Below, piece by piece: positions 3,127-56,755 of a DNA stretch of 56,755 nt (positions are counted from its first letter, which is position 1; every line of letters begins with the position of its first letter). A program made the position numbers and the translations under genes. The notes beneath the pieces were generated by a model. It ran no database searches, was not told the DNA's origin, and saw nothing but the letters and a program-made list of their open reading frames with translations. This stretch comes from a candidate division FCPU426 bacterium (GTDB taxonomy: Bacteria > Oederibacteriota > Muellerivitia > Muellerivitales > Muellerivitaceae), in assembly GCA_030038835.1 (NCBI GenBank), contig JASHQZ010000167.1:1-56755 (forward strand). Reading direction: 5' to 3'.

Positions 3127-4215
3127 ATGAAAACCATCGTTGTCACGGGAGGCGCGGGATTCATCGGCTCCAATTTCGTTTATTACCTGCTCTCCCACTC
3201 CACTTCCTCCCGGATCGTGGTCTTCGACAAACTGACCTACGCAGGTAACCAACGAAGCCTCCAGGAAGCGATTGAGACGGGGCGGGTCCATTTCGTCCAG
3301 GGGGATATCGCCGACAGCCGACAGGTCCATGCCCTGTACCACCGCTTCAAGCCAGCTTATATCTTTAACTTCGCTGCGGAAAGCCACGTGGACCGGTCCA
3401 TTGAGGGGCCTGAAGCATTTGTGCGGACGAATGTGGAAGGAACTTTCCAGCTCCTACAGGAATCCCGGCGCTATTGGATGGGGCTGAAGGGCCGGGCACG
3501 TGTAGATTTCCGTTTCTTGCATGTCTCGACCGATGAGGTTTATGGAAGCCTGGGAAAGACCGGTTCTTTTTCTGAAACAACCCCTTACGCCCCCAACTCG
3601 CCTTACTCGGCCACCAAGGCCGGGGCGGACCACCTAGTGCGGGCTTACCACGAAACCTATGGATTGCCCGTGGTATTGACCAATTGCTCGAACAATTACG
3701 GCCCCTACCAGTTCCCGGAAAAACTGATCCCGCTCATGATTTTAAACGCCCTGGAAGGGAAGCCATTACCGGTTTACGGTGACGGCAAGAACGTAAGGGA
3801 TTGGCTTTATGTGGAGGACCATTGCGAAGCTTTGTGGAAGGCCATGACGAAGGGGAGCCCCGGGGAGAGGTACAACGTGGGGGGAAGCAACGAAAAAACC
3901 AACTTGGAGGTGGTGGGCACTCTTTGTCGGCAGCTTCAAAGGGCCTATCCCGCCGGGCAAAATCCCGCGCTTTTGGAGAAGGGCCTCAAGGATTATGGTA
4001 AACTCGTTGTTTTCGTGAAGGATAGGCCGGGCCATGACCGGCGATACGCCATCGATGCCTCCAAGATCCGGCGGGAATTGGGCTGGATCCCTCACCATTC
4101 CTTCGACACCGGCATGGAAGCCACCGTGAAATGGTACTTGGGCCACCTGGATTGGTGCCGGAGGGTTCAGGAAGGGAATTACGGGCGGCAAAGGCTGGGG
4201 TTGCTTAAAAAATAA
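3127..4215 (+). CDS. rfbB: dTDP-glucose 4,6-dehydratase
   Basis: MKTIVVTGGAGFIGSNF Rossmann motif, YSATKAGADHL catalytic YxxxK, 362 aa. Confidence 0.95.
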   Translation: MKTIVVTGGAGFIGSNFVYYLLSHSTSSRIVVFDKLTYAGNQRSLQEAIETGRVHFVQGDIADSRQVHALYHRFKPAYIFNFAAESHVDRSIEGPEAFVRTNVEGTFQLLQESRRYWMGLKGRARVDFRFLHVSTDEVYGSLGKTGSFSETTPYAPNSPYSATKAGADHLVRAYHETYGLPVVLTNCSNNYGPYQFPEKLIPLMILNALEGKPLPVYGDGKNVRDWLYVEDHCEALWKAMTKGSPGERYNVGGSNEKTNLEVVGTLCRQLQRAYPAGQNPALLEKGLKDYGKLVVFVKDRPGHDRRYAIDASKIRRELGWIPHHSFDTGMEATVKWYLGHLDWCRRVQEGNYGRQRLGLLKK

Positions 4216-4313
4216 TTTTGAGTTGAAGGCAAAAGGCTTCTGCATTTATGCCTTTCTTCGCGACGTTTGCGTTTTCACGGTGAAATTTTAGGGTTATGAA
4301 TGAAAGGGCAAAA

Positions 4314-42753: not shown

Positions 42754-43983
42754 ATGAGCTACGTCAAGGCTTTGAAATGCCGCGAATGCGGCCAAGAATA
42801 CGAAAAAACGGCCAAGTACGTCTGTGAGTTCTGCTTTGGACCTTTGGAAGCGGCCTATGATTACGACAATATCAAGAAGGACATTTCCCGTCAAAAGATC
42901 GCCTCGCGCCCGCTGAATATCTGGCGCTATCGGGAATTTCTGCCTGTGGAAGGCACTCGTTACAACACCCTCGAGGAGGGCTATACCCCCCTTCTCAAGG
43001 CCGAGCGGCTGGGTGAGGAACTGGGGCTGTCCAAGCTTTACGTGAAGAACGATTGTGCCAATCCCACTCATTCCTTCAAGGACCGCGTGGTGGCTGTGGC
43101 CTCCACCCGAGCCCTGGAATTGGGCTTTGACACCCTCGCCTGCGCTTCCACCGGCAACCTCGCCAACGCGGTTTCGGCCTACGGGGCCAAGGGCAAAATG
43201 AAACGCTTTGTATTCATCCCCTCCAACCTGGAACCCAGCAAAGTGACGGCATCGCTCATCTACGATCCGAACCTCATTGGAGTCAACGGCAATTACGACG
43301 ACGTCAACCGCCTTTGCAGCGAAATCGCGGGAAAATACAAATGGGCCTTCGTGAACATCAACATGAGGCCCTATTATGCCGAGGGCTCCAAGACCCTCGG
43401 GTTCGAGACCGCAGAGCAGTTGGGCTGGAAAGCCCCGGATCAAGTCGTCGTTCCCGTGGCTTCCGGCTCTCTTTTAACCAAGATTTGGAAAGGGACACAG
43501 GAATTCATTAAGGTGGGCCTCATTGAAAACAAACCCATGAGGGTTTTTGGCGCCCAAGCCGTCGGCTGTTCGCCGGTAACCACCGCTTATAAGGCCAAGA
43601 CTGACACTTTCCGGCCGGTCAAACCCAATACCATCGCCAAGTCCCTGGCTATCGGCAATCCCGCCGATGGTTTTTACGCCCTGAGAACCATCGCCGATTC
43701 CAATGGTGGGGCTGAGATGGTCACAGACGAGGAAATTGTGGAAGGCATCAAACTGCTAGCCCGCACCGAAGGCATTTTCGCGGAAACCGCTGGGGGTGTC
43801 ACGATCGGATGCCTGAAAAAACTGGCCGAATCAGGGGCCTTGGATCCGGATGCGGTGACTGTGGCTTACGTGACCGGAACAGGCTTGAAAACCCAGGAAG
43901 CGGTGACGGGCCATTTAAGGGAAGTAAAGGTCATCCAGCCCAATCTCGCCGCCTTTGAAGCCACCCAACTGGTCCCGGCCTGA
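42754..43983 (+). CDS. Threonine-synthase-family PLP enzyme with an N-terminal zinc ribbon (second ThrC paralog, SAM-regulated)
   Basis: CRECG-x11-CEFC ribbon, NPTHSFKDRVV PLP-lysine motif, ASTGNLANA, 409 aa. Confidence 0.85.
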   Translation: MSYVKALKCRECGQEYEKTAKYVCEFCFGPLEAAYDYDNIKKDISRQKIASRPLNIWRYREFLPVEGTRYNTLEEGYTPLLKAERLGEELGLSKLYVKNDCANPTHSFKDRVVAVASTRALELGFDTLACASTGNLANAVSAYGAKGKMKRFVFIPSNLEPSKVTASLIYDPNLIGVNGNYDDVNRLCSEIAGKYKWAFVNINMRPYYAEGSKTLGFETAEQLGWKAPDQVVVPVASGSLLTKIWKGTQEFIKVGLIENKPMRVFGAQAVGCSPVTTAYKAKTDTFRPVKPNTIAKSLAIGNPADGFYALRTIADSNGGAEMVTDEEIVEGIKLLARTEGIFAETAGGVTIGCLKKLAESGALDPDAVTVAYVTGTGLKTQEAVTGHLREVKVIQPNLAAFEATQLVPA

Positions 43984-47233: not shown

Positions 47234-47397
47234 GAAATTGGCAAGTTATGGATCGGTCCTTGTCCACGACGGAGACGGGTTTATTCCGGTAGCTTGGCAG
47301 GAAACTAGCCGCAGCGGCTTTCCAATGTTTTCCCCTGGAAATCAAGGGGGGCTTTCGTCATAATCCAGGTTTAATACTGGTTTCAGGAGGAATTTCC

Positions 47398-47694
47398 ATG
47401 GCTGTGAAAGTTCTCATTCCAACCCCTTTGAGGAACCTCACCAACAACCAGGCGGAGGTCGATGCCGAAGGGGCCACCATTTCCGACCTGATCAACAACT
47501 TGGGGAAGAATTACAACGGGTTGAAGGACCGCCTTTGCGACGAAAACGGCAAAATCCGCCGATTCGTGAACATTTACCTGAACGAAGAAGACATCCGTTT
47601 CCTGCAAGGGGAAGCCACGGCCGTCAAGCCCGGGGACCAGGTTTCCATCGTTCCCGCGATAGCGGGAGGATCAGGTGAAAATAAAGACATTTGA
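47398..47694 (+). CDS. CysO/MoaD/ThiS-family ubiquitin-like sulfur-carrier protein with a 7-residue extension after the Gly-Gly
   Basis: [13 protein letters not shown]...[18 protein letters not shown]...[20 protein letters not shown] closely parallels M. tuberculosis CysO as I recall it. Strong AGGAGG SD. Confidence 0.85.
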
Positions 47695-47742: not shown

Positions 47743-47988
47743 ATGGCGGATATTAAGAAACTCATCGAACTGGATTATCCCACCGAACTGGTCACCGAAC
47801 CGGTGCTTTCCAAAATGATCAAGAAATATAACGTCACGGTCAACATCCGCCGGGCCTCCATCACCAAGGGTTTCGGCTACGTCCAAATGGAGATCGAGGG
47901 AGAAGAAAAAGAAGTGCAAAAGGCCCTCGACAATCTTTCTAAACAGGGAATCGACGTTAATCCCATTGTTAAAGACATTGTCGAGTAA
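47743..47988 (+). CDS. Stand-alone NIL-domain protein
   Basis: An 81-aa protein, EPVLSKMIKKYNVTVNIRRASI...GYVQMEIEGEE..., matching the NIL (MetN C-terminal-type) pattern. Confidence 0.7.
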   Translation: MADIKKLIELDYPTELVTEPVLSKMIKKYNVTVNIRRASITKGFGYVQMEIEGEEKEVQKALDNLSKQGIDVNPIVKDIVE

Positions 47989-47992
47989 GGGG

Positions 47993-48601
47993 ATGGCAGA
48001 CACCCAACCTCAAGAAAGATATTCCCGCCAGGTCATCCTCCCGGGAGTCGGGCAGGAAGGCCAGGCCAAGTGGGCCGCATCCAGGATTCTTCTAGCAGGG
48101 GAAGGCGTGATCCTTACGGCAGCCGAGACGGCCTTAAAGTCCAGCGGTATTTCCAACCTCCTGCAATGGAAAACCGACTCCCCTCAAGCTCCCATTGGAG
48201 ATGCGGACCTAACCCTGGTCCTCACGGAAAATTCCGATTTCCGGCGGCGCGCCAGCCGCTGGCTCCGGAAAAACCGAAGGCCTGCCCTTTTCGCCTGGTG
48301 CGCGGGAAGCGGCTACGCCCTTTTCGCGGCTTCCCATTGGGAAAACCATTGTCCGTGCCTGGAATGCTTTGAAACCCTCAATCCAAAGGCCTTCGCTGGC
48401 GGAACGCCTACGACCCAACGCCTATTAGGCGCCTTGGCGGCCTCTGAGGCGTTGCAGTGGATTTTGAAGGGAAGCACGCCCTTGGCAAGCAAGGTTTGGG
48501 TCACATCCCTTGATTCGGGAGTCTCCTTTCATCACGAAGTAAAAGCCTCCGACAAATGCCCGGTCCGGCTGTCGGAGGAAGGGGCGGTTGTAACCCCGTG
48601 A
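47993..48601 (+). CDS. Degenerate ThiF/MoeB (E1)-like protein lacking the nucleotide-binding motifs
   Basis: It retains ERYSRQVILPGVGQEGQ, DLTLVLTENSDFRRR and the CPCLEC CxxC. The Gly-rich loop reads LLAGEGVILTA, and the DxDxVxxSNLxRQ segment is absent. 202 aa. Confidence 0.65.
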   Translation: MADTQPQERYSRQVILPGVGQEGQAKWAASRILLAGEGVILTAAETALKSSGISNLLQWKTDSPQAPIGDADLTLVLTENSDFRRRASRWLRKNRRPALFAWCAGSGYALFAASHWENHCPCLECFETLNPKAFAGGTPTTQRLLGALAASEALQWILKGSTPLASKVWVTSLDSGVSFHHEVKASDKCPVRLSEEGAVVTP

Positions 48602-49551
48602 CCTATAACCGCTACCCTTTAGCCACCGACATCACCCAAATCATCGGCAACACCCCCCTGCTGAAGCTGCAACGCATTCCGGAAAAGGGGGGGGCCCAGA
48701 TCCTTTGCAAACTGGAATTTTACAATCCCGGCGGAAGCGTGAAGGACCGCATCGCCCTGGCCATGATCGAGGACGCCGAAAAGCGCGGTATCCTAAAACC
48801 CGGTGGAACCTTGGTGGAGCCCACCAGCGGCAATACGGGCATCGGTTTGGCTTTGGTGTGCGCCCAGAGGGGCTACCGGTTGATCCTGGTCATGCCCGAG
48901 GATATGAGCCTGGAGCGCCGGGTACTGCTGCGGGCCTATGGCGCCGAATTGGTTTTGACCCCCGCCCAGGGATTGATGGCGGAGGCCGTCCGAAAGGCCA
49001 AAGAGATCAAGCAGCAACACCCGGATTATTTCATGCCGGAGCAATTCGCCAACCGGGCTAATCCCGAAGCGCATAAAAGGACCACCGCGCCCGAGATTGA
49101 AAAGGACACCGGAGGACAATTGGACGCCTTCGTAGCCGGCATTGGAACAGGCGGGACTATCACGGGAGTGGGCGAATATTTCAAGGCCAAGGACCCCAAA
49201 ATAAGGATGGTGGGCGTGGAACCGGCGGCCTCTGCCGTACTTTCAGGCGGCAAGGCGGGTATTCATCGAATTCAAGGCATTGGGGCGGGGTTCGTGCCAC
49301 CGGTCTTGAACCGGTCGATCTTGGACGAGGTGGCAACGGTGGAAGACAAGGAAGCCTTCCTCATGACCAAACGGTTGGCGCGGGAAGAAGGGTTGCTTTT
49401 GGGTATTTCCTCTGGAGCCAATGTGGCGGTGGCGGTCAAGGTGGCCCAGAGGCTTGGGCCCGAGGCCCGCGTGGTCACCCTTTGCTGCGATATGGGGGAA
49501 AGGTATTTCAGCTTGGAAGAGGAATTCGAAAGGCAAGAAAAGAGACATTAA
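48598..49551 (+). CDS. Cysteine synthase (CysK/CysM family PLP enzyme)
   Basis: NPGGSVKDRIA PLP lysine, TSGNTGIGLA, GTGGTITG. GTG 48598 overlaps the upstream TGA (GTGA coupling). The ORF track starts at 48556. Confidence 0.9.
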   Translation: MTYNRYPLATDITQIIGNTPLLKLQRIPEKGGAQILCKLEFYNPGGSVKDRIALAMIEDAEKRGILKPGGTLVEPTSGNTGIGLALVCAQRGYRLILVMPEDMSLERRVLLRAYGAELVLTPAQGLMAEAVRKAKEIKQQHPDYFMPEQFANRANPEAHKRTTAPEIEKDTGGQLDAFVAGIGTGGTITGVGEYFKAKDPKIRMVGVEPAASAVLSGGKAGIHRIQGIGAGFVPPVLNRSILDEVATVEDKEAFLMTKRLAREEGLLLGISSGANVAVAVKVAQRLGPEARVVTLCCDMGERYFSLEEEFERQEKRH

Positions 49552-54712: not shown

Positions 54713-54901
54713 ATGGAACAATTTTTTATGGGACTTTGCTTAGCCGTCTTGGGTTTTGGGATTTACCAGTTCTCCCGGATCTTTGGCTTGTACTCGGCCC
54801 AAAACGAAAAAGGCGCCCCGTGGCCTTACTTGGTCCTGTTTACCATCTCTTACGGCTTGATCGGCCTCGGCGCCATCATAATGGCCTTCAGTTTGATGTG
54901 A
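54713..54901 (+). CDS. Hypothetical small membrane protein (62 aa)
   Basis: Two hydrophobic segments. No other support. Confidence 0.35.
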   Translation: MEQFFMGLCLAVLGFGIYQFSRIFGLYSAQNEKGAPWPYLVLFTISYGLIGLGAIIMAFSLM

Positions 54902-54908
54902 GGGAAGC

Positions 54909-55607
54909 ATGAGAAATAGGATTTTAGTGGTGGGAGTGGGCGGTCTGGGCTGCCCCGCCGCTTTAGCCCTCGCCGAGGCGGGCGCGGAGAACCTGGGCCT
55001 AATGGACCCCGACCAGGTGGAACTTTCCAACCTGCACCGGCAGATCCTTTATTCCGAAAAGGACTTGGGGCGGTCCAAGGCCGAGGCCGCCGCAGACTAC
55101 CTCCGAAAACGTTACCGCCCCCTTCGTACGGTTCCCATTGTGGAAGCTTTGAACGCCCAAAACGCTGAAAAATTCATTTCAGCCTACGACCTCGTCATTG
55201 ACGGCCTGGATCGATTGGAAAAAAAGTTTTTTTTGAATGACTGGTGCGTCAAGATGGGGAAACCCTTCGTCCATGCCGGAGTAGTCCGATTCGAAGGGCA
55301 AGTCCTGCCGGTTCTTCCGGGCCAAACCGCCTGCTTACGTTGCCTGGTCCCCAAAATCCCCCCCCCGTTCGCCATGCCCACCTGCCAGGATGCGGGCGTT
55401 TTAGGTTCCTTTTCCCAGGCCATCGGTTATCTCCAGGCCCACGAGGCATTGCGCCTGTCCGAAAACCGGGGTCCTTTGCTGCTTTGGAAAGTCAATGCCC
55501 AGGAGAGGCAAGCGAGGTCGCTCATTTCCCGGCGCAATCCTGTCTGTGAAGCTTGCGGCCAAGGCCATGTTGAGAACGAAATGACCCGGCCCCTTTGCGC
55601 TTTCTAA
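54909..55607 (+). CDS. ThiF/MoeB/HesA-family E1-like adenylyltransferase (minimal N-terminus)
   Basis: ILVVGVGGLGCPAALALAEAG Gly-rich loop, DPDQVELSNLHRQ, ACLRC and CEAC zinc motifs. An in-frame TGA at 54894-54896 prevents any longer N-terminus. Confidence 0.85.
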   Translation: MRNRILVVGVGGLGCPAALALAEAGAENLGLMDPDQVELSNLHRQILYSEKDLGRSKAEAAADYLRKRYRPLRTVPIVEALNAQNAEKFISAYDLVIDGLDRLEKKFFLNDWCVKMGKPFVHAGVVRFEGQVLPVLPGQTACLRCLVPKIPPPFAMPTCQDAGVLGSFSQAIGYLQAHEALRLSENRGPLLLWKVNAQERQARSLISRRNPVCEACGQGHVENEMTRPLCAF

Positions 55608-55685: not shown

Positions 55686-56755
55686 AGGGACTTATATACT
55701 TCACTCCCTTTTTCCTTATTTCCGTTGCTTGGCCTTTTTCTTTCTCTTTTTTGGATTCGGTTTGTAGGCCAAAACCTTGTCCAAAAGTGCGTCAAATTCC
55801 TTTTTCTTCTTCAAGCTGTCTCCCTGTGTTCCTCTTTTCCAATAAGGCGCTTATAGGTTAGCCGCTTGCCAGTGGAGCGATCAATGAGGCTTTCAATCCG
55901 TTCCAGCCTAGGACGTTCTACGTTGCCTTCGTTGAGCCTAAATGTGAACTCATTGACGTATCGGGCTAAATGCTTGCGGTCTACATGGTGATAGACCCCA
56001 TTTAAACCCCGCTTCATAACAGCCCAAACGCTTTCAATGCTGTTTGTGGTTACTTGACCCCGGACATATTCCTTGTGGCTATGATTCACGCTTTCGTGCT
56101 TGTAAACGCCATCTAAGGGGTTGTAGCCGTGGTTGTCGTCAGTATTGATAGTGCTACCTTCCTTGACGTTACAAGCCACGGTTTCAGACAGAATGACACT
56201 ATTGACGGCCTTAATCGGCATGGCCTTAGTTCTTCCACCCCGTTCACGCATACCAAGGACAGGTGTTTTGGTGATGGTGCTTTTGCCCCTGTTGCCAGGA
56301 ATGCGCTTATCGGCGTGTTTGTTTTCTTCCTTGCCGCCAACGTAGGTTTCGTCAATCTCCACTATGCCGCTTAACTGGGAAAAATCATGTCCACAAGCCT
56401 CGCGGATACGGCCTAGCAGAAACCAAGCGGTCTTTTGAGTTACGCCGATCTCTTTGGAAAGCTGAATCGAGGAAATGCCCTTCCTGGCCGTGACCAAGAG
56501 GTACATGGCATAAAGCCATTTGTGCAAAGGAACATGGCTTTTCTCAAAGACCGTACCAGTTCTAACGGTGAAGTCCTCAATGCAATAGTTACATCGATAG
56601 AAGCCGTCTTTTCTCACGGTGATCTTATCGCCCTTTTTGCAATATGGGCAAACAGGGCCGTTAGGCCAAAGGCGTTTCTCAATGTAAACTCTGGCCGTCT
56701 CTTGGTCTGGAAACATTTCGAAAAGCTTGAGGGTGTTTAATTTCTCATTTTTCAT
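55686..56755 (-). mobile_element. IS1595-family insertion sequence, truncated by the window edge; the inner boundary is approximate
   Basis: It contains the transposase gene. GC drops to about 47% (28 of 60 at 56101-56160). A hairpin AAGGGA/TCCCTT (55685-55710) lies downstream of the transposase on the minus strand. Terminal repeats cannot be defined because the other end is outside the window. Confidence 0.55.
55811..56755 (-). CDS. IS1595-family (ISXO2-like) transposase
   Basis: N-terminal zinc ribbon CPYCKK...YRCNYC, an HTH (ISSIQLSKEIGVTQKTAWFLLGRI) and a DDE-type domain (VEIDETYVGG...). The ATG is the last three bases of the window. Confidence 0.9.
   Translation of the reverse strand: MKNEKLNTLKLFEMFPDQETARVYIEKRLWPNGPVCPYCKKGDKITVRKDGFYRCNYCIEDFTVRTGTVFEKSHVPLHKWLYAMYLLVTARKGISSIQLSKEIGVTQKTAWFLLGRIREACGHDFSQLSGIVEIDETYVGGKEENKHADKRIPGNRGKSTITKTPVLGMRERGGRTKAMPIKAVNSVILSETVACNVKEGSTINTDDNHGYNPLDGVYKHESVNHSHKEYVRGQVTTNSIESVWAVMKRGLNGVYHHVDRKHLARYVNEFTFRLNEGNVERPRLERIESLIDRSTGKRLTYKRLIGKEEHRETA

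What the first reader, a model, noticed from the sequence alone, without database searches (positions are those of the whole stretch)
47993..48601. E1-like protein that keeps the N-terminal RYSRQ motif and the CxxC but has lost the ATP-binding elements
Compared with E. coli MoeB as I recall it, this 202-aa protein retains ERYSRQVILPG-GQ, the DLVLDxTDN-like block (DLTLVLTENSDFRRR) and a CxxC (CPCLEC). The Gly-rich P-loop is LLAGEGVILTA instead of VGxGGLG. The roughly 60-residue segment with DxDxVxxSNLxRQ and the catalytic Lys/Arg is deleted. This resembles the inactive adenylation domain or subunit of eukaryotic E1s (Aos1, AppBp1), which mainly contributes an arginine finger and a scaffold. I am not aware of a bacterial stand-alone counterpart.
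Basis: partly seen in the sequence, partly recalled or inferred. Interest (0 to 1): 0.65.

Follow-up and report, generated by a model that had tools for sequence, protein, structure and literature searches.

The report
Catalytically dead ThiF-like partner subunit
This gene encodes a conserved but enzymatically dead copy of the bacterial enzyme that activates sulfur-carrier proteins. It keeps only the scaffold and an "arginine finger" helix, and it most likely pairs with a second copy that has lost exactly that helix, giving a two-gene, eukaryote-style asymmetric E1 for cysteine and homocysteine synthesis.

Summary
ORF 47993..48601 encodes a 202-aa ThiF/MoeB-fold protein. It keeps the N-terminal RYSRQ helix (R12 = MoeB R14 / ThiF R11) and a four-Cys site. 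It lacks the GxGGxG loop, DxD, SNLxRQ, the catalytic Lys and the crossover-loop Cys, and about 49 residues are missing relative to MoeB.

It is not a pseudogene. About 80 orthologues exist in candidate division FCPU426 / Firestonebacteria MAGs, always in the order ThiS–NIL–E1L–CysK, and dN/dS is 0.28.

The ThiF at 54909..55607 keeps every catalytic motif but has no RYxRQ helix. In about 30 loci from several phyla, a dead RYSRQ-bearing paralogue co-occurs with such a truncated ThiF, and often both sit in one operon (ThiF–[MetM]–ThiS–CysM–[NIL]–E1L). Equivalent clusters that carry a full-length ThiF have no E1L.

Two further architectures show the same split. Thermodesulfobacteriota have a rhodanese-fused dead E1 plus a ThiS–ThiF fusion. 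Syntrophomonadaceae have natural fusions with the dead half N-terminal and the active half C-terminal.

The heterodimer itself could not be modelled or tested here. I found no description of it in the searchable literature. Verdict: a new variant of a known kind.

The parts
47336..47364 (+). sigma-70-like promoter candidate upstream of the ThiS-NIL-E1L-CysK operon
   Evidence: Consensus scan, 9 of 12 matches. This is a weak pattern match only.
47398..47694 (+). ThiS/MoaD-family sulfur-carrier protein (CysO/MetO-like). It has the GG motif at residues 90-91 followed by a 7-residue tail, SGENKDI.
   Evidence: Pfam ThiS 5.5e-19; NCBIfam SAMP1/MoaD family. It is 83-96% identical in the FCPU426 loci. 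The tails after GG vary from 0 to 11 residues among orthologues.
47743..47988 (+). stand-alone NIL-domain protein (81 aa)
   Evidence: Pfam NIL 7.6e-17. Its stop codon TAA lies 4 nt before the E1L ATG. Across clusters it tracks the MetM-like gene rather than E1L.
47993..48601 (+). E1L: catalytically dead ThiF/MoeB-fold protein (202 aa), the finding itself
48014..48073 (+). E1L residues 8-27 (ERYSRQVILPGVGQEGQAKW): N-terminal helix carrying the arginine finger R12 (48026..48028)
   Evidence: R12 aligns with MoeB R14 and ThiF R11. This is one of the two most conserved segments (top-residue frequency 0.82). pLDDT is low (52-58) in the monomer model.
48086..48118 (+). E1L residues 32-42 (LLAGEGVILTA): degenerate glycine loop in place of GxGGxG
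   Evidence: MAFFT alignment with the short and full-length ThiFs; hhalign.
48170..48208 (+). E1L residues 60-72: scar of the deletion that removed DxD, SNLxRQ and the catalytic Lys
   Evidence: It is the least conserved internal segment (0.38).
48347..48397 (+). E1L residues 119-135 (HCPCLECFETLNPKAFA): Cys motif C120/C122/C125, with a shortened crossover region that has no catalytic Cys
   Evidence: It is the most conserved segment (0.86). C122 and C125 align with the first Zn CxxC. C120 replaces the missing second Cys of the C-terminal pair (29 of 30 FCPU426-type sequences, against 31 of 33 Binatia-type that keep CxxC).
48557..48598 (+). E1L C189 (48557..48559) and the conserved C-terminal tail ...EEGAVVTP
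   Evidence: C189 is invariant. All 30 FCPU426-type sequences examined end in ...G-x-x-[VI]-[TLI]-P. The tail has low confidence in the model.
48598..49551 (+). CysK-type cysteine synthase. It probably starts at GTG 48598, overlapping the E1L stop codon (ccGTGAcc).
   Evidence: NCBIfam cysK 440 bits against a cut-off of 351; Pfam PALP 7.5e-83. Junction sequence. The orthologue in L001 was called with a 4-nt overlap.
42754..43983 (+). ThrC-like PLP enzyme (409 aa, N-terminal NinF-like Zn ribbon), a candidate MetM-type thiocarboxylate-dependent homocysteine synthase
   Evidence: Pfam PALP 2.9e-66 plus NinF. It sits in one operon with short ThiF, ThiS, CysM, NIL and E1L in the Binatia-type loci. 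The MetM pathway is described in the GapMind 2026 preprint.
54713..54901 (+). 62-aa predicted membrane protein directly upstream of the short ThiF
   Evidence: It is conserved next to the short ThiF in L003, L004, L017 and L018. There is only a weak DUF202 hit. Its role is unknown.
54909..55607 (+). Short ThiF (232 aa), the proposed catalytic partner. It has an intact GVGGLG, DPDQV, SNLHRQ, Lys, DGLD, two CxxC motifs and the crossover Cys (PTCQDAG), but no RYxRQ helix.
   Evidence: Pfam ThiF 5.1e-63, starting at profile position 21. Only 4 open codons lie upstream of the ATG. Motif table and alignment.

Best explanation
E1L (47993..48601) is the non-catalytic subunit of a two-gene, asymmetric ThiF/MoeB-type E1. 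This E1 activates the ThiS/CysO/MetO-like sulfur carrier encoded two genes upstream.

Shown here:
- E1L has the E1 fold but no nucleotide-binding or catalytic residues.
- It retains the N-terminal helix with the arginine finger (R12) and a four-Cys, presumably Zn-binding, site.
- The window's second ThiF (54909..55607) retains every catalytic element but has lost that helix.
- The two gene types co-occur across phyla, and fused versions exist.

Inferred:
- The two proteins form a MoeB-like dimer with a single active site, made from the ThiF pocket plus the E1L N-terminal helix.
- The active subunit adenylates the carrier's C-terminal Gly.
- The carrier thiocarboxylate then feeds the CysK/CysM-type cysteine synthase and the MetM-like homocysteine synthase.
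- E1L serves mainly as an obligate dimerisation scaffold and Arg-finger donor. In some lineages it may also be the platform that brings in sulfur, since in Thermodesulfobacteriota it is fused to a rhodanese domain.
- The pair arose by duplication of a full-length ThiF followed by complementary degeneration. The FCPU426 form is the most reduced.
For: (1) Fold and loss of motifs.

(2) Real, selected gene. There are 82 homologues. dN/dS is 0.28 against the closest orthologue, compared with 0.04-0.12 for the neighbouring genes. Conservation peaks at the Arg-finger helix and the Cys motif.

(3) Complementary loss. All 20 short ThiFs found with an E1L lack any R[YF]xRQ and have at most 26 open codons upstream. 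All of them keep GxGGLG, DxDxV, SNLxRQ and two CxxC.

(4) Co-occurrence. There are 12 FCPU426-type loci, about 14 Binatia / Methylomirabilota / Margulisiibacteriota-labelled loci, and 4 complete Thermodesulfobacteriota loci. Many have both genes in one operon with ThiS and CysM, with or without MetM and NIL, next to sulfate-activation genes.

(5) Mutual exclusivity. Equivalent CysK/MetM/ThiS/NIL clusters of Omnitrophota and Nitrospirota carry one full-length ThiF with RYSRQ and no E1L.

(6) Rosetta stones. P0359 (448 aa) and P0404/P0469 (468 aa, Syntrophomonadaceae, seen on 53 contigs) fuse a dead RYxRQ-bearing half to an active half without the helix. P0469 sits next to a MoaD/ThiS-like gene. 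The AF2 model of P0404 (pTM 0.76) aligns over both halves to single-chain Uba1/UBA6/UBA7 (TMq 0.52-0.59), but over only one half to ThiF/MoeB (TMq 0.44-0.46).

(7) Precedent. Yeast Tcd1-Tcd2 is a ThiF-family heterodimer in which the inactive Tcd1 supplies the Arg finger (PMC13139853).

(8) hhalign places the FCPU426 E1L closest to the Binatia-type E1L (E 1.6e-24). That family in turn is close to the short ThiF (E 4.4e-23), which fits stepwise degeneration.
Against: - No physical or modelling evidence for the E1L-ThiF complex was obtained.
- In FCPU426 the two genes lie 6.3 kb apart, separated by unrelated genes on both strands.
- In L014 and L016 no short ThiF lies within 10 kb. L068 has an orphan E1L next to an APS kinase.
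- The MoeB R14 and ThiF R11 fingers are reported as non-essential, and E. coli TcdA works without one (PMC13139853). A helix-less ThiF therefore need not require a donor.
- Co-occurrence is partly lineage-bound, so the roughly 30 loci are not 30 independent events.
- The N-terminal half of the fusion model rests on a shallow alignment (pLDDT 73.6).
Confidence: 0.65

Rival explanations
1. E1L works without the short ThiF. It would be a carrier- or enzyme-binding adaptor that holds the ThiS-like carrier (or its thiocarboxylate) and hands it to CysK or MetM. Alternatively it docks onto CysK through its conserved C-terminal tail. The Arg-finger helix would be conserved for another contact.
For: - E1L is translationally coupled to NIL upstream and CysK downstream.
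- The C-terminal ...EEGAxVTP tail is conserved, yet poorly ordered in the model.
- Inactive E1-like domains act as peptide clamps in RiPP heterocyclases, which appear among the structural hits.
Against: - The crossover loop that threads the carrier tail in E1s is shortened, and the ATP site is gone.
- This reading does not explain why the partner ThiF has lost exactly the helix that E1L keeps.
- It does not explain the mutual exclusivity with full-length ThiF, or the fusions of a dead half to an active half.
- The C-terminal tail is specific to the FCPU426 type, whereas the dead/short pairing is general.
Confidence: 0.15
2. E1L is primarily a sulfur-relay protein. Its Cys cluster (C120/C122/C125/C189) would carry a persulfide or a metal-sulfur centre. 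This would replace the rhodanese domain that MoeZ/Uba4-type E1s have and that the short ThiF lacks. It could do so either inside a heterodimer or alone.
For: - The Cys motif is the most conserved segment.
- No rhodanese domain was seen on the short ThiF or elsewhere in the operon or the ORFs examined.
- In Thermodesulfobacteriota the dead paralogue is the one fused to a rhodanese domain with an intact CxxGxR loop.
Against: - C122, C125 and C189 align with the structural Zn ligands of MoeB/ThiF.
- The C120 gain exactly compensates for the lost fourth ligand (29 of 30 against 31 of 33). That pattern points to a conserved structural Zn site rather than to redox chemistry.
- Binatia-type E1Ls keep the ordinary 2 x CxxC arrangement.
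Confidence: 0.1
3. E1L is still an adenylating enzyme with an unconventional nucleotide pocket.
For: - The Pfam ThiF score is above the gathering threshold.
- Databases annotate relatives as adenylyltransferases.
- E79 is a conservative replacement of MoeB D130.
Against: - The GxGGxG loop, DxD, the R73 equivalent, the K86 equivalent and the crossover loop are all absent.
- About 49 residues of the pocket are deleted.
- The Pfam match covers only profile positions 1-47.
Confidence: 0.03
4. E1L is a decaying remnant of a duplicated ThiF with no function.
For: It evolves 3-8 times faster than its neighbours. One orthologue (L017) appears frameshifted.
Against: - About 80 intact orthologues hold a fixed operon position and show translational coupling.
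- dN/dS is 0.28.
- There are invariant residues, and a wider family of more than 600 proteins in other phyla.
Confidence: 0.02

Closest known systems
Inactive subunits of eukaryotic heterodimeric E1s (SAE1/Aos1 with SAE2/Uba2; NAE1/APPBP1 with UBA3)
   Same: Both have the E1 fold without a working nucleotide site. Both are a separate polypeptide presumed to pair with a catalytic paralogue. Both retain the N-terminal arginine that completes the partner's ATP site (for the eukaryotic side this is established knowledge, recalled). Both involve complementary specialisation of two paralogues.
   Different: E1L is much smaller (202 aa) and has no catalytic-Cys or UFD-associated inserts. Its partner serves a sulfur-carrier (thiocarboxylate) pathway, not conjugation. 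By hhalign it derives from the bacterial ThiF of the same operon type, so it is an analogue rather than an orthologue. SAE1 and NAE1 are not among the top 50 structural hits.
Yeast Tcd1-Tcd2 (ThiF-family ct6A dehydratase heterodimer; PMC13139853)
   Same: It is a ThiF-family heterodimer with one inactive subunit (Tcd1). That subunit is needed for stability and supplies the Arg finger (R59) to the active subunit, which itself contributes none.
   Different: It is eukaryotic and membrane-anchored, acts on tRNA, and has an extra C-terminal domain. Tcd1 keeps a full-length nucleotide-binding region and lacks only one Arg. E1L has lost the whole ATP-binding segment.
Bacterial single-chain E1s with an inactive plus an active adenylation domain (BilD / Bub-type; PMC11354881, PMC10557695)
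   Same: These show the asymmetric pseudo-dimer with one dead and one active adenylation domain in bacteria. The domain order is the same as in the natural fusions found here (P0359, P0404).
   Different: They are one polypeptide with a catalytic Cys domain, and they function with E2 and deubiquitinase-like partners in Ubl conjugation and antiviral defence. E1L has no PADLOC match and no such neighbours. Here the two halves are separate genes in sulfur assimilation.
MoeB/ThiF/MoeZ homodimeric sulfur-carrier E1s (E. coli MoeB-MoaD 1JW9, ThiF-ThiS 1ZUD; M. tuberculosis CysO-MoeZ-CysM; Streptomyces MetO-MoeZ-MetM)
   Same: They are the best sequence and structure matches. They belong to the same kind of pathway: a ThiS-like carrier with a CysM/CysK-type and a MetM-type PLP enzyme.
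   Different: Those enzymes are symmetric homodimers in which each chain has both the Arg finger and a full active site, and MoeZ adds a rhodanese domain. Here the two features are split between two genes.
E1-like domains of RiPP heterocyclases and related enzymes (LynD 4V1T, TruD 4BS9, PaaA 5FF5, MccB 3H5N)
   Same: They are structural neighbours (E 1e-9 to 1e-7). In LynD and TruD the E1-like domain no longer binds ATP and acts as a binding scaffold (established knowledge, recalled).
   Different: Those domains carry an N-terminal peptide-recognition element and partner a YcaO domain. No YcaO gene or precursor peptide occurs here. The weak TIGR03882 hit (E 0.024) is far below its cut-off.

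Membership tests
ThiF/MoeB/HesA superfamily (Pfam PF00899; E1-like Rossmann fold) | Significant profile match and E1-like fold | tested here: met
   PF00899 scores 36.9 bits against a gathering score of 28.1, on the N-terminal 47 profile positions only. The AF2 model matches MoeB 1jw9_B at E 3.6e-12, TMq 0.76. hhalign to the short ThiF family gives 96% probability.
Active ThiF/MoeB-type adenylyltransferase | Glycine-rich nucleotide loop GxGGxG | tested here: not met
   The loop reads LLAGEGVILTA in the window protein. The family consensus is LLAGEGxAL.
Active ThiF/MoeB-type adenylyltransferase | DxDxV...SNLxRQ segment (MoeB R73) and the following catalytic Lys (MoeB K86) | tested here: not met
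   MoeB 62-118 corresponds to 8 residues here. The motifs are absent in all E1Ls.
Active ThiF/MoeB-type adenylyltransferase | Catalytic Asp of the DxxDN block (MoeB D130) | tested here: not met
   It aligns with E79 (TEN in place of TDN) and is not invariant in the family.
Active ThiF/MoeB-type adenylyltransferase | Crossover loop with a conserved Cys (PxCxEAGV) | tested here: not met
   The loop is shortened to ...ETLNPKAFAGGTP... with no Cys and no EAG.
Active ThiF/MoeB-type adenylyltransferase | N-terminal RYxRQ helix (trans-acting Arg finger) | tested here: met
   R12 and Q13 are invariant in A1 and at least 90% conserved in A2. R12 aligns with MoeB R14 and ThiF R11.
Active ThiF/MoeB-type adenylyltransferase | Tetra-Cys structural Zn site (2 x CxxC) | tested here: inconclusive
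   Four conserved Cys are present, but arranged as C120-x-C122-x-x-C125 plus C189. Binatia-type relatives keep 2 x CxxC. Metal binding was not tested.
Inactive adenylation-domain-like subunit of an asymmetric E1 (functional class: SAE1, NAE1, Tcd1) | E1 fold with a destroyed nucleotide site but a retained Arg finger | tested here: met
Inactive adenylation-domain-like subunit of an asymmetric E1 (functional class: SAE1, NAE1, Tcd1) | A dedicated catalytic paralogue that depends on it (co-occurrence, complementary loss) | tested here: met
   A short ThiF without RYxRQ is present in about 30 E1L loci. No E1L occurs in clusters with a full-length ThiF. Natural fusions exist.
Inactive adenylation-domain-like subunit of an asymmetric E1 (functional class: SAE1, NAE1, Tcd1) | Physical heterodimer with the catalytic subunit | not testable with these tools
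Only the natural fusion could be modelled.
Orthologue of eukaryotic SAE1/NAE1 | Common descent with the eukaryotic inactive subunits rather than independent degeneration | tested here: not met
   The closest profiles are the Binatia-type E1L and then the bacterial short ThiF. The closest structures are MoeB and ThiF, and SAE1/NAE1 are not in the top 50. No formal phylogeny was made.
RiPP cyclodehydratase E1-like (C-protein / LynD N-domain) | YcaO partner and leader-peptide recognition element | tested here: not met
   No YcaO gene lies in the window operon or in any related locus examined. TIGR03882 scores only 14.9 bits against a cut-off of 36.9.
Anti-phage E1 systems (CBASS Cap2, Bil, 6A-MBL) | Match to defence-system E1 models, and E2/JAB/effector neighbours | tested here: not met
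   E1L has no PADLOC hit. The short ThiF shows only generic E1 homology. The neighbours are sulfur-assimilation genes.

The most novel reading that the evidence does not exclude
The E1L / short-ThiF pair would be an extant bacterial example of how symmetric MoeB/ThiF homodimers become asymmetric E1s: duplication, complementary loss (Arg finger in one copy, active site in the other), and in some lineages re-fusion with the dead half first. Beyond scaffolding, the dead subunit would have become the sulfur-delivery and hand-off module of the enzyme. It is rhodanese-fused in Thermodesulfobacteriota. In FCPU426 it carries a conserved C-terminal tail and is coupled to NIL and CysK. That would be a division of labour between the two E1 protomers not described for any E1.
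Probability: 0.2. Interest if true: 0.8.

Novelty: new variant of a known kind. Interest (0 to 1): 0.68.

Why it matters
Asymmetric E1s, with one dead and one active adenylation domain, are a hallmark of eukaryotic ubiquitin-like activation. How they arose from symmetric bacterial MoeB/ThiF homodimers is usually inferred rather than observed.

Here the same split appears inside the ancestral sulfur-carrier function. It is spread over several poorly studied bacterial phyla and occurs in three forms:
- separate genes in separate operons;
- separate genes in one operon;
- fused genes.

This offers a tractable bacterial system for asking what the dead protomer contributes: the Arg finger, dimer stability or sulfur delivery.

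There is also a practical consequence. Hundreds of database entries annotated as 'adenylyltransferase/sulfurtransferase' are almost certainly not enzymes. Pathway-reconstruction tools for thiocarboxylate-dependent cysteine and homocysteine synthesis (the CysO/MetO routes) should expect a two-gene E1 in these lineages.

Tried and rejected
1. Heterodimer modelling. I built a 16-row paired alignment of E1L, a linker and the short ThiF (A3).

2. NIL-E1L fusion proteins P0090 and P0103 looked like Rosetta stones. They are gene-calling artefacts: an in-frame TGA separates the two ORFs.

3. A block alignment for the natural fusion P0404 failed. MAFFT put the E1L N-helices on the N-terminal half but their bodies on the active C-terminal half. 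I therefore used an alignment that informs only the C-terminal half (A8), which limits the model.

4. Reverse check from the short ThiF side. The 120 listed hits were all FCPU426 orthologues, so there was no independent sample of helix-less ThiFs. P0320 first seemed to lack an E1L, but the gene caller had truncated it. The real ORF, L086 7191..7772 (GTG start), has RYSRQ.

5. The profile search of 1.84 billion representatives gave 152 hits at E <= 1e-30. Canonical ThiF/MoeZ proteins mix in below about 1e-36, so no clean family count could be taken.

6. Literature. I found no description of a stand-alone dead ThiF partner in sulfur-carrier pathways. Iyer et al. 2006 describe ThiS-ThiF fusions and cysteine-synthase operons, but no dead/active E1 pairs. 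The most relevant survey (Burroughs, Iyer & Aravind 2009, PMC2732565) is not held, so prior mention there cannot be excluded.

7. No JAMM/Mec-type peptidase for trimming the carrier tail was seen in the operon or in the ORFs scanned. The rest of the window was not scanned.

8. A defence-system reading was rejected. A RiPP heterocyclase reading was rejected because there is no YcaO gene.
Full report
**Observation.** The ORF 47993..48601 (+) exists and reads as the first-stage reader quoted.
- Pfam's ThiF model matches above its gathering score (36.9 against 28.1 bits, E 2.8e-9). The match covers only residues 10-56, which is profile positions 1-47 of 238.
- NCBIfam MoeB/ThiF models likewise match only the first ~55 residues, far below their cut-offs.
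- phmmer against PDB sequences aligns residues 5-59 to E. coli MoeB 7-61 without gaps. R12 therefore corresponds to MoeB R14 and ThiF R11. PMC13139853 names these residues as the trans-acting arginine fingers.
- Residues 68-168 align weakly to MoeB 119-223. The 57 MoeB residues that carry DxD, SNLxRQ (R73) and K86 are thus represented by only 8 residues.
- The glycine loop is LLAGEGVILTA. 'TEN' stands where MoeB has 'TDN'. CPCLEC aligns with the first Zn CxxC.
- An AlphaFold2 model built on 80 homologues is confident (pLDDT 89.2, pTM 0.85), except for residues 1-20 and the last few residues.
- Its best structural matches are MoeB (1jw9_B, E 3.6e-12, TMq 0.76) and ThiF. These are followed by the E1-like domains of heterocyclases, then MccB, Uba4, UBA5 and PaaA.

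**A real, selected gene.**
- The protein has 82 homologues of 200-248 aa.
- In genome collections the close ones (47-81% identity) all come from MAGs labelled candidate division FCPU426 or Firestonebacteria, or from unclassified MAGs. The window is most like an FCPU426 MAG (L003).
- In all of them the order ThiS-like carrier, NIL protein, E1L, CysK is kept.
- In the window the genes are tightly coupled. The NIL stop codon lies 4 nt before the E1L ATG, and the E1L TGA overlaps a GTG that is the likely CysK start.
- Against the closest orthologue dN/dS is 0.28 (dS 0.41). The neighbours give 0.04 (ThiS), 0.12 (NIL), 0.06 (CysK), 0.07 (short ThiF) and 0.05 (MetM-like). Selection is purifying but three to eight times more relaxed, as expected for a scaffold rather than an enzyme.
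- Conservation is concentrated in the Arg-finger helix (residues 8-27) and the Cys motif (119-135). It is lowest at the deletion scar (60-72).

**The partner.**
- The window's second ThiF (54909..55607) matches Pfam ThiF at 5e-63, but only from profile position 21.
- It begins MRNRILVVGVGGLG. Only four open codons lie upstream of its ATG.
- It keeps GVGGLG, DPDQV, SNLHRQ, the Lys, DGLD, both CxxC motifs and the crossover-loop Cys.
- The two window proteins are therefore complementary. One has the finger and no active site. The other has the active site and no finger.

**The pairing is general.**
- *FCPU426-type loci.* Twelve carry both genes, 4-8 kb apart.
- *Distant E1L relatives.* These are 22-29% identical, keep RYSRQ and have lost the ATP motifs. 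They form a much larger family: 670 hits, mostly annotated 'adenylyltransferase/sulfurtransferase'.
- These relatives sit in MAGs labelled Binatia, Methylomirabilota, Margulisiibacteriota and 'Deltaproteobacteria'.
- There the dead gene and a helix-less ThiF bracket a single operon, in one of two forms: ThiF–ThiS–CysM–E1L, or ThiF–MetM-like–ThiS–CysM–NIL–E1L. The operon usually lies next to sulfate-activation genes.
- All 20 short ThiFs first examined, and all later ones, lack any R[YF]xRQ and have no hidden upstream frame.
- *Clusters with a full-length ThiF.* Clusters of the same gene content in Omnitrophota and Nitrospirota have one full-length ThiF with RYSRQ and no E1L.
- *Third architecture.* In Thermodesulfobacteriota / Syntrophobacterales MAGs a rhodanese domain is fused to a degenerate E1. 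That E1 keeps RYSRQ, but SNLxRQ has become GDLEGQ and DGSDN has become ECSGDS. It sits beside a ThiS–ThiF fusion whose ThiF part is catalytically intact but has lost the finger arginine.
- *Exceptions.* In L014 and L016 no short ThiF lies within 10 kb. L068 is an orphan E1L next to an APS kinase.

**Fusions.**
- A profile search of 1.84 billion representatives turned up two proteins that join the two halves.
- P0359 is 448 aa. P0404 is 468 aa, and its 90% cluster is found in Syntrophomonadaceae MAGs on 53 contigs.
- Both have an N-terminal half with RY[SH]RQ and a dead glycine loop. Both have a C-terminal half with every catalytic motif and no RYxRQ.
- The Syntrophomonadaceae gene lies near a MoaD/ThiS-like gene and an aldehyde:ferredoxin oxidoreductase gene. 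It therefore also belongs to the sulfur-carrier world.
- An AF2 model of it has moderate quality (pLDDT 73.6, pTM 0.76; its N-terminal half rests on a shallow alignment).
- That model aligns over one half to ThiF/MoeB (TMq 0.44-0.46). It aligns over both halves to single-chain Uba1/UBA6/UBA7 (TMq 0.52-0.59). This is consistent with a pseudo-dimer of a dead and an active adenylation domain.

**Origin.**
- Profile-profile comparison puts the FCPU426 E1L closest to the Binatia-type E1L (99.6%, E 1.6e-24, full length).
- The Binatia-type E1L is in turn close to the short ThiF (E 4.4e-23). The FCPU426 E1L against the short ThiF gives only E 2.8e-9.
- The simplest reading is duplication of a full-length ThiF, complementary degeneration, and further reduction in FCPU426.
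- The four-Cys count is preserved by a ligand swap. Binatia-type proteins have PCxxC...CxxC (31 of 33). FCPU426-type proteins have CPCxxC...C (29 of 30). This argues for a retained structural metal site.

**Mechanism.**
- Most likely (about 0.65), E1L is the non-catalytic protomer of a MoeB-like heterodimer with the short ThiF.
- The dimer would have one active site, completed by E1L's N-terminal helix. It would adenylate the ThiS-like carrier.
- The carrier thiocarboxylate would then serve the CysK/CysM-type enzyme and the ThrC-like, MetM-type enzyme. The thiocarboxylate routes are those known from M. tuberculosis CysO/MoeZ/CysM (PMC3227635) and from Streptomyces MetO/MoeZ/MetM as summarised in the GapMind 2026 preprint.
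- *Shown:* the motif pattern, selection, co-occurrence, mutual exclusivity and fusions.
- *Inferred:* the physical complex, the role of R12, and the pathway chemistry.
- The reported non-essentiality of the MoeB and ThiF fingers, and the finger-less TcdA (PMC13139853), mean that E1L's main contribution may be dimer stability or sulfur delivery rather than catalysis.
- The rivals are listed separately with their weights: an independent carrier or CysK adaptor, a sulfur relay through the Cys cluster, residual activity, and gene decay.

**Comparison with known systems.**
- Functionally, E1L matches the inactive subunits of eukaryotic heterodimeric E1s and yeast Tcd1. It also matches the inactive adenylation domain of bacterial BilD-type E1s.
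- It is not an orthologue of any of these. It is not part of a conjugation or defence system, and it is not a RiPP heterocyclase domain.
- I found no description of a stand-alone dead ThiF partner in a sulfur-carrier pathway in the searchable literature. The 2009 survey of the E1-like superfamily could not be read.
- I rate the finding a new variant of a known kind, with interest about 0.68.

Noticed in passing
window 47398..47694: The ThiS-like carrier has its GG at residues 90-91, followed by a 7-residue tail (SGENKDI). Orthologues carry tails of 0-11 unrelated residues (K, R, C, F, KVKR, LNLF, IHPNS, AFSPRLAAPETF and others). The carrier must therefore be trimmed before activation. No JAMM/Mec-type peptidase gene was seen in the operon or in the ORFs scanned.
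   Followed up: partly
window 47743..47988; loci L026, L035, L040, L056, L090, L092: The stand-alone NIL-domain protein tracks the ThrC-like (MetM-type) gene, not E1L. Clusters with only CysM (L019, L020, L071, L072, L084, L091) have E1L but no NIL. Every cluster with the MetM-like gene has NIL. This hints at a role in homocysteine synthesis.
   Followed up: partly
window 48575..48598 (E1L residues 195-202): All 30 FCPU426-type E1Ls examined end in a conserved tail, ...EEGAxVTP-COOH. The tail is poorly ordered in the model and is absent from Binatia-type E1Ls. It may be a docking peptide for CysK, NIL or the short ThiF.
   Followed up: no
L040 2029..3132 and 3208..4275; also L046, L058, L066: Thermodesulfobacteriota / Syntrophobacterales MAGs encode a rhodanese domain fused to a degenerate E1 (which keeps RYSRQ). 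Next to it lies a ThiS-ThiF fusion ORF whose ThiF part is catalytically intact but has G in place of the finger Arg. These follow the MetM-like and NIL genes.
   Followed up: partly
L088/L089 8001..9407 (P0469); P0359: Natural single-chain E1s of 448-468 aa join a dead and an active ThiF half. The Syntrophomonadaceae one lies near a 76-aa MoaD/ThiS-like gene, an aldehyde:ferredoxin oxidoreductase and Fe-S/NADH-oxidoreductase subunits. This suggests a role in tungsten or molybdenum cofactor sulfuration.
   Followed up: partly
L083 3..926 (P0090), P0103: JGI gene calls read an in-frame TGA as sense and so report spurious NIL-E1L fusion proteins. In L086 the caller instead truncated E1L to 139 aa, whereas the real GTG-start ORF is 193 aa. 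Public annotations of this family are unreliable at both ends.
   Followed up: yes
window 48556..48601: The longest CysK ORF starts at ATG 48556 and would overlap E1L by 46 nt. A GTG at 48598 overlapping the E1L TGA (ccGTGAcc) fits the orthologous gene call in L001 and the start of the CysK homology, so it is the likelier start.
   Followed up: partly
window 54713..54901: A 62-aa two-helix membrane protein (weak DUF202 hit) sits directly upstream of the short ThiF. It is conserved there in L003, L004, L017 and L018. Its function is unknown.
   Followed up: no
window 55811..56755 (-): An IS1595-family (ISXO2-like) transposase gene (DDE_Tnp_IS1595 8.6e-45, with a Zn ribbon) lies immediately downstream of the short ThiF and runs to the window end. 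The syntenic loci L001 and L003 do not show it at this place.
   Followed up: partly
L068 9995..10693: An orphan E1L-like gene (it keeps RYSRQ and lacks the ATP motifs) sits in a 3.66-Mb 'delta proteobacterium' MAG contig next to an APS kinase. No ThiF, ThiS or CysM lies within 10 kb.
   Followed up: partly
L017 9704..10631: The E1L orthologue in this MAG is split over two frames (tblastn pieces q8-143 and q119-197), and so are its MetM-like and NIL genes. This probably reflects assembly or sequencing frameshifts in that long-read MAG rather than gene decay.
   Followed up: no
window 42754..43983: The ThrC-like PLP enzyme carries an N-terminal NinF-like Zn-ribbon motif. It is the most conserved gene of the set (86-95% identity across FCPU426; dN/dS 0.02-0.05). 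It is likely misannotated as threonine synthase in databases.
   Followed up: partly
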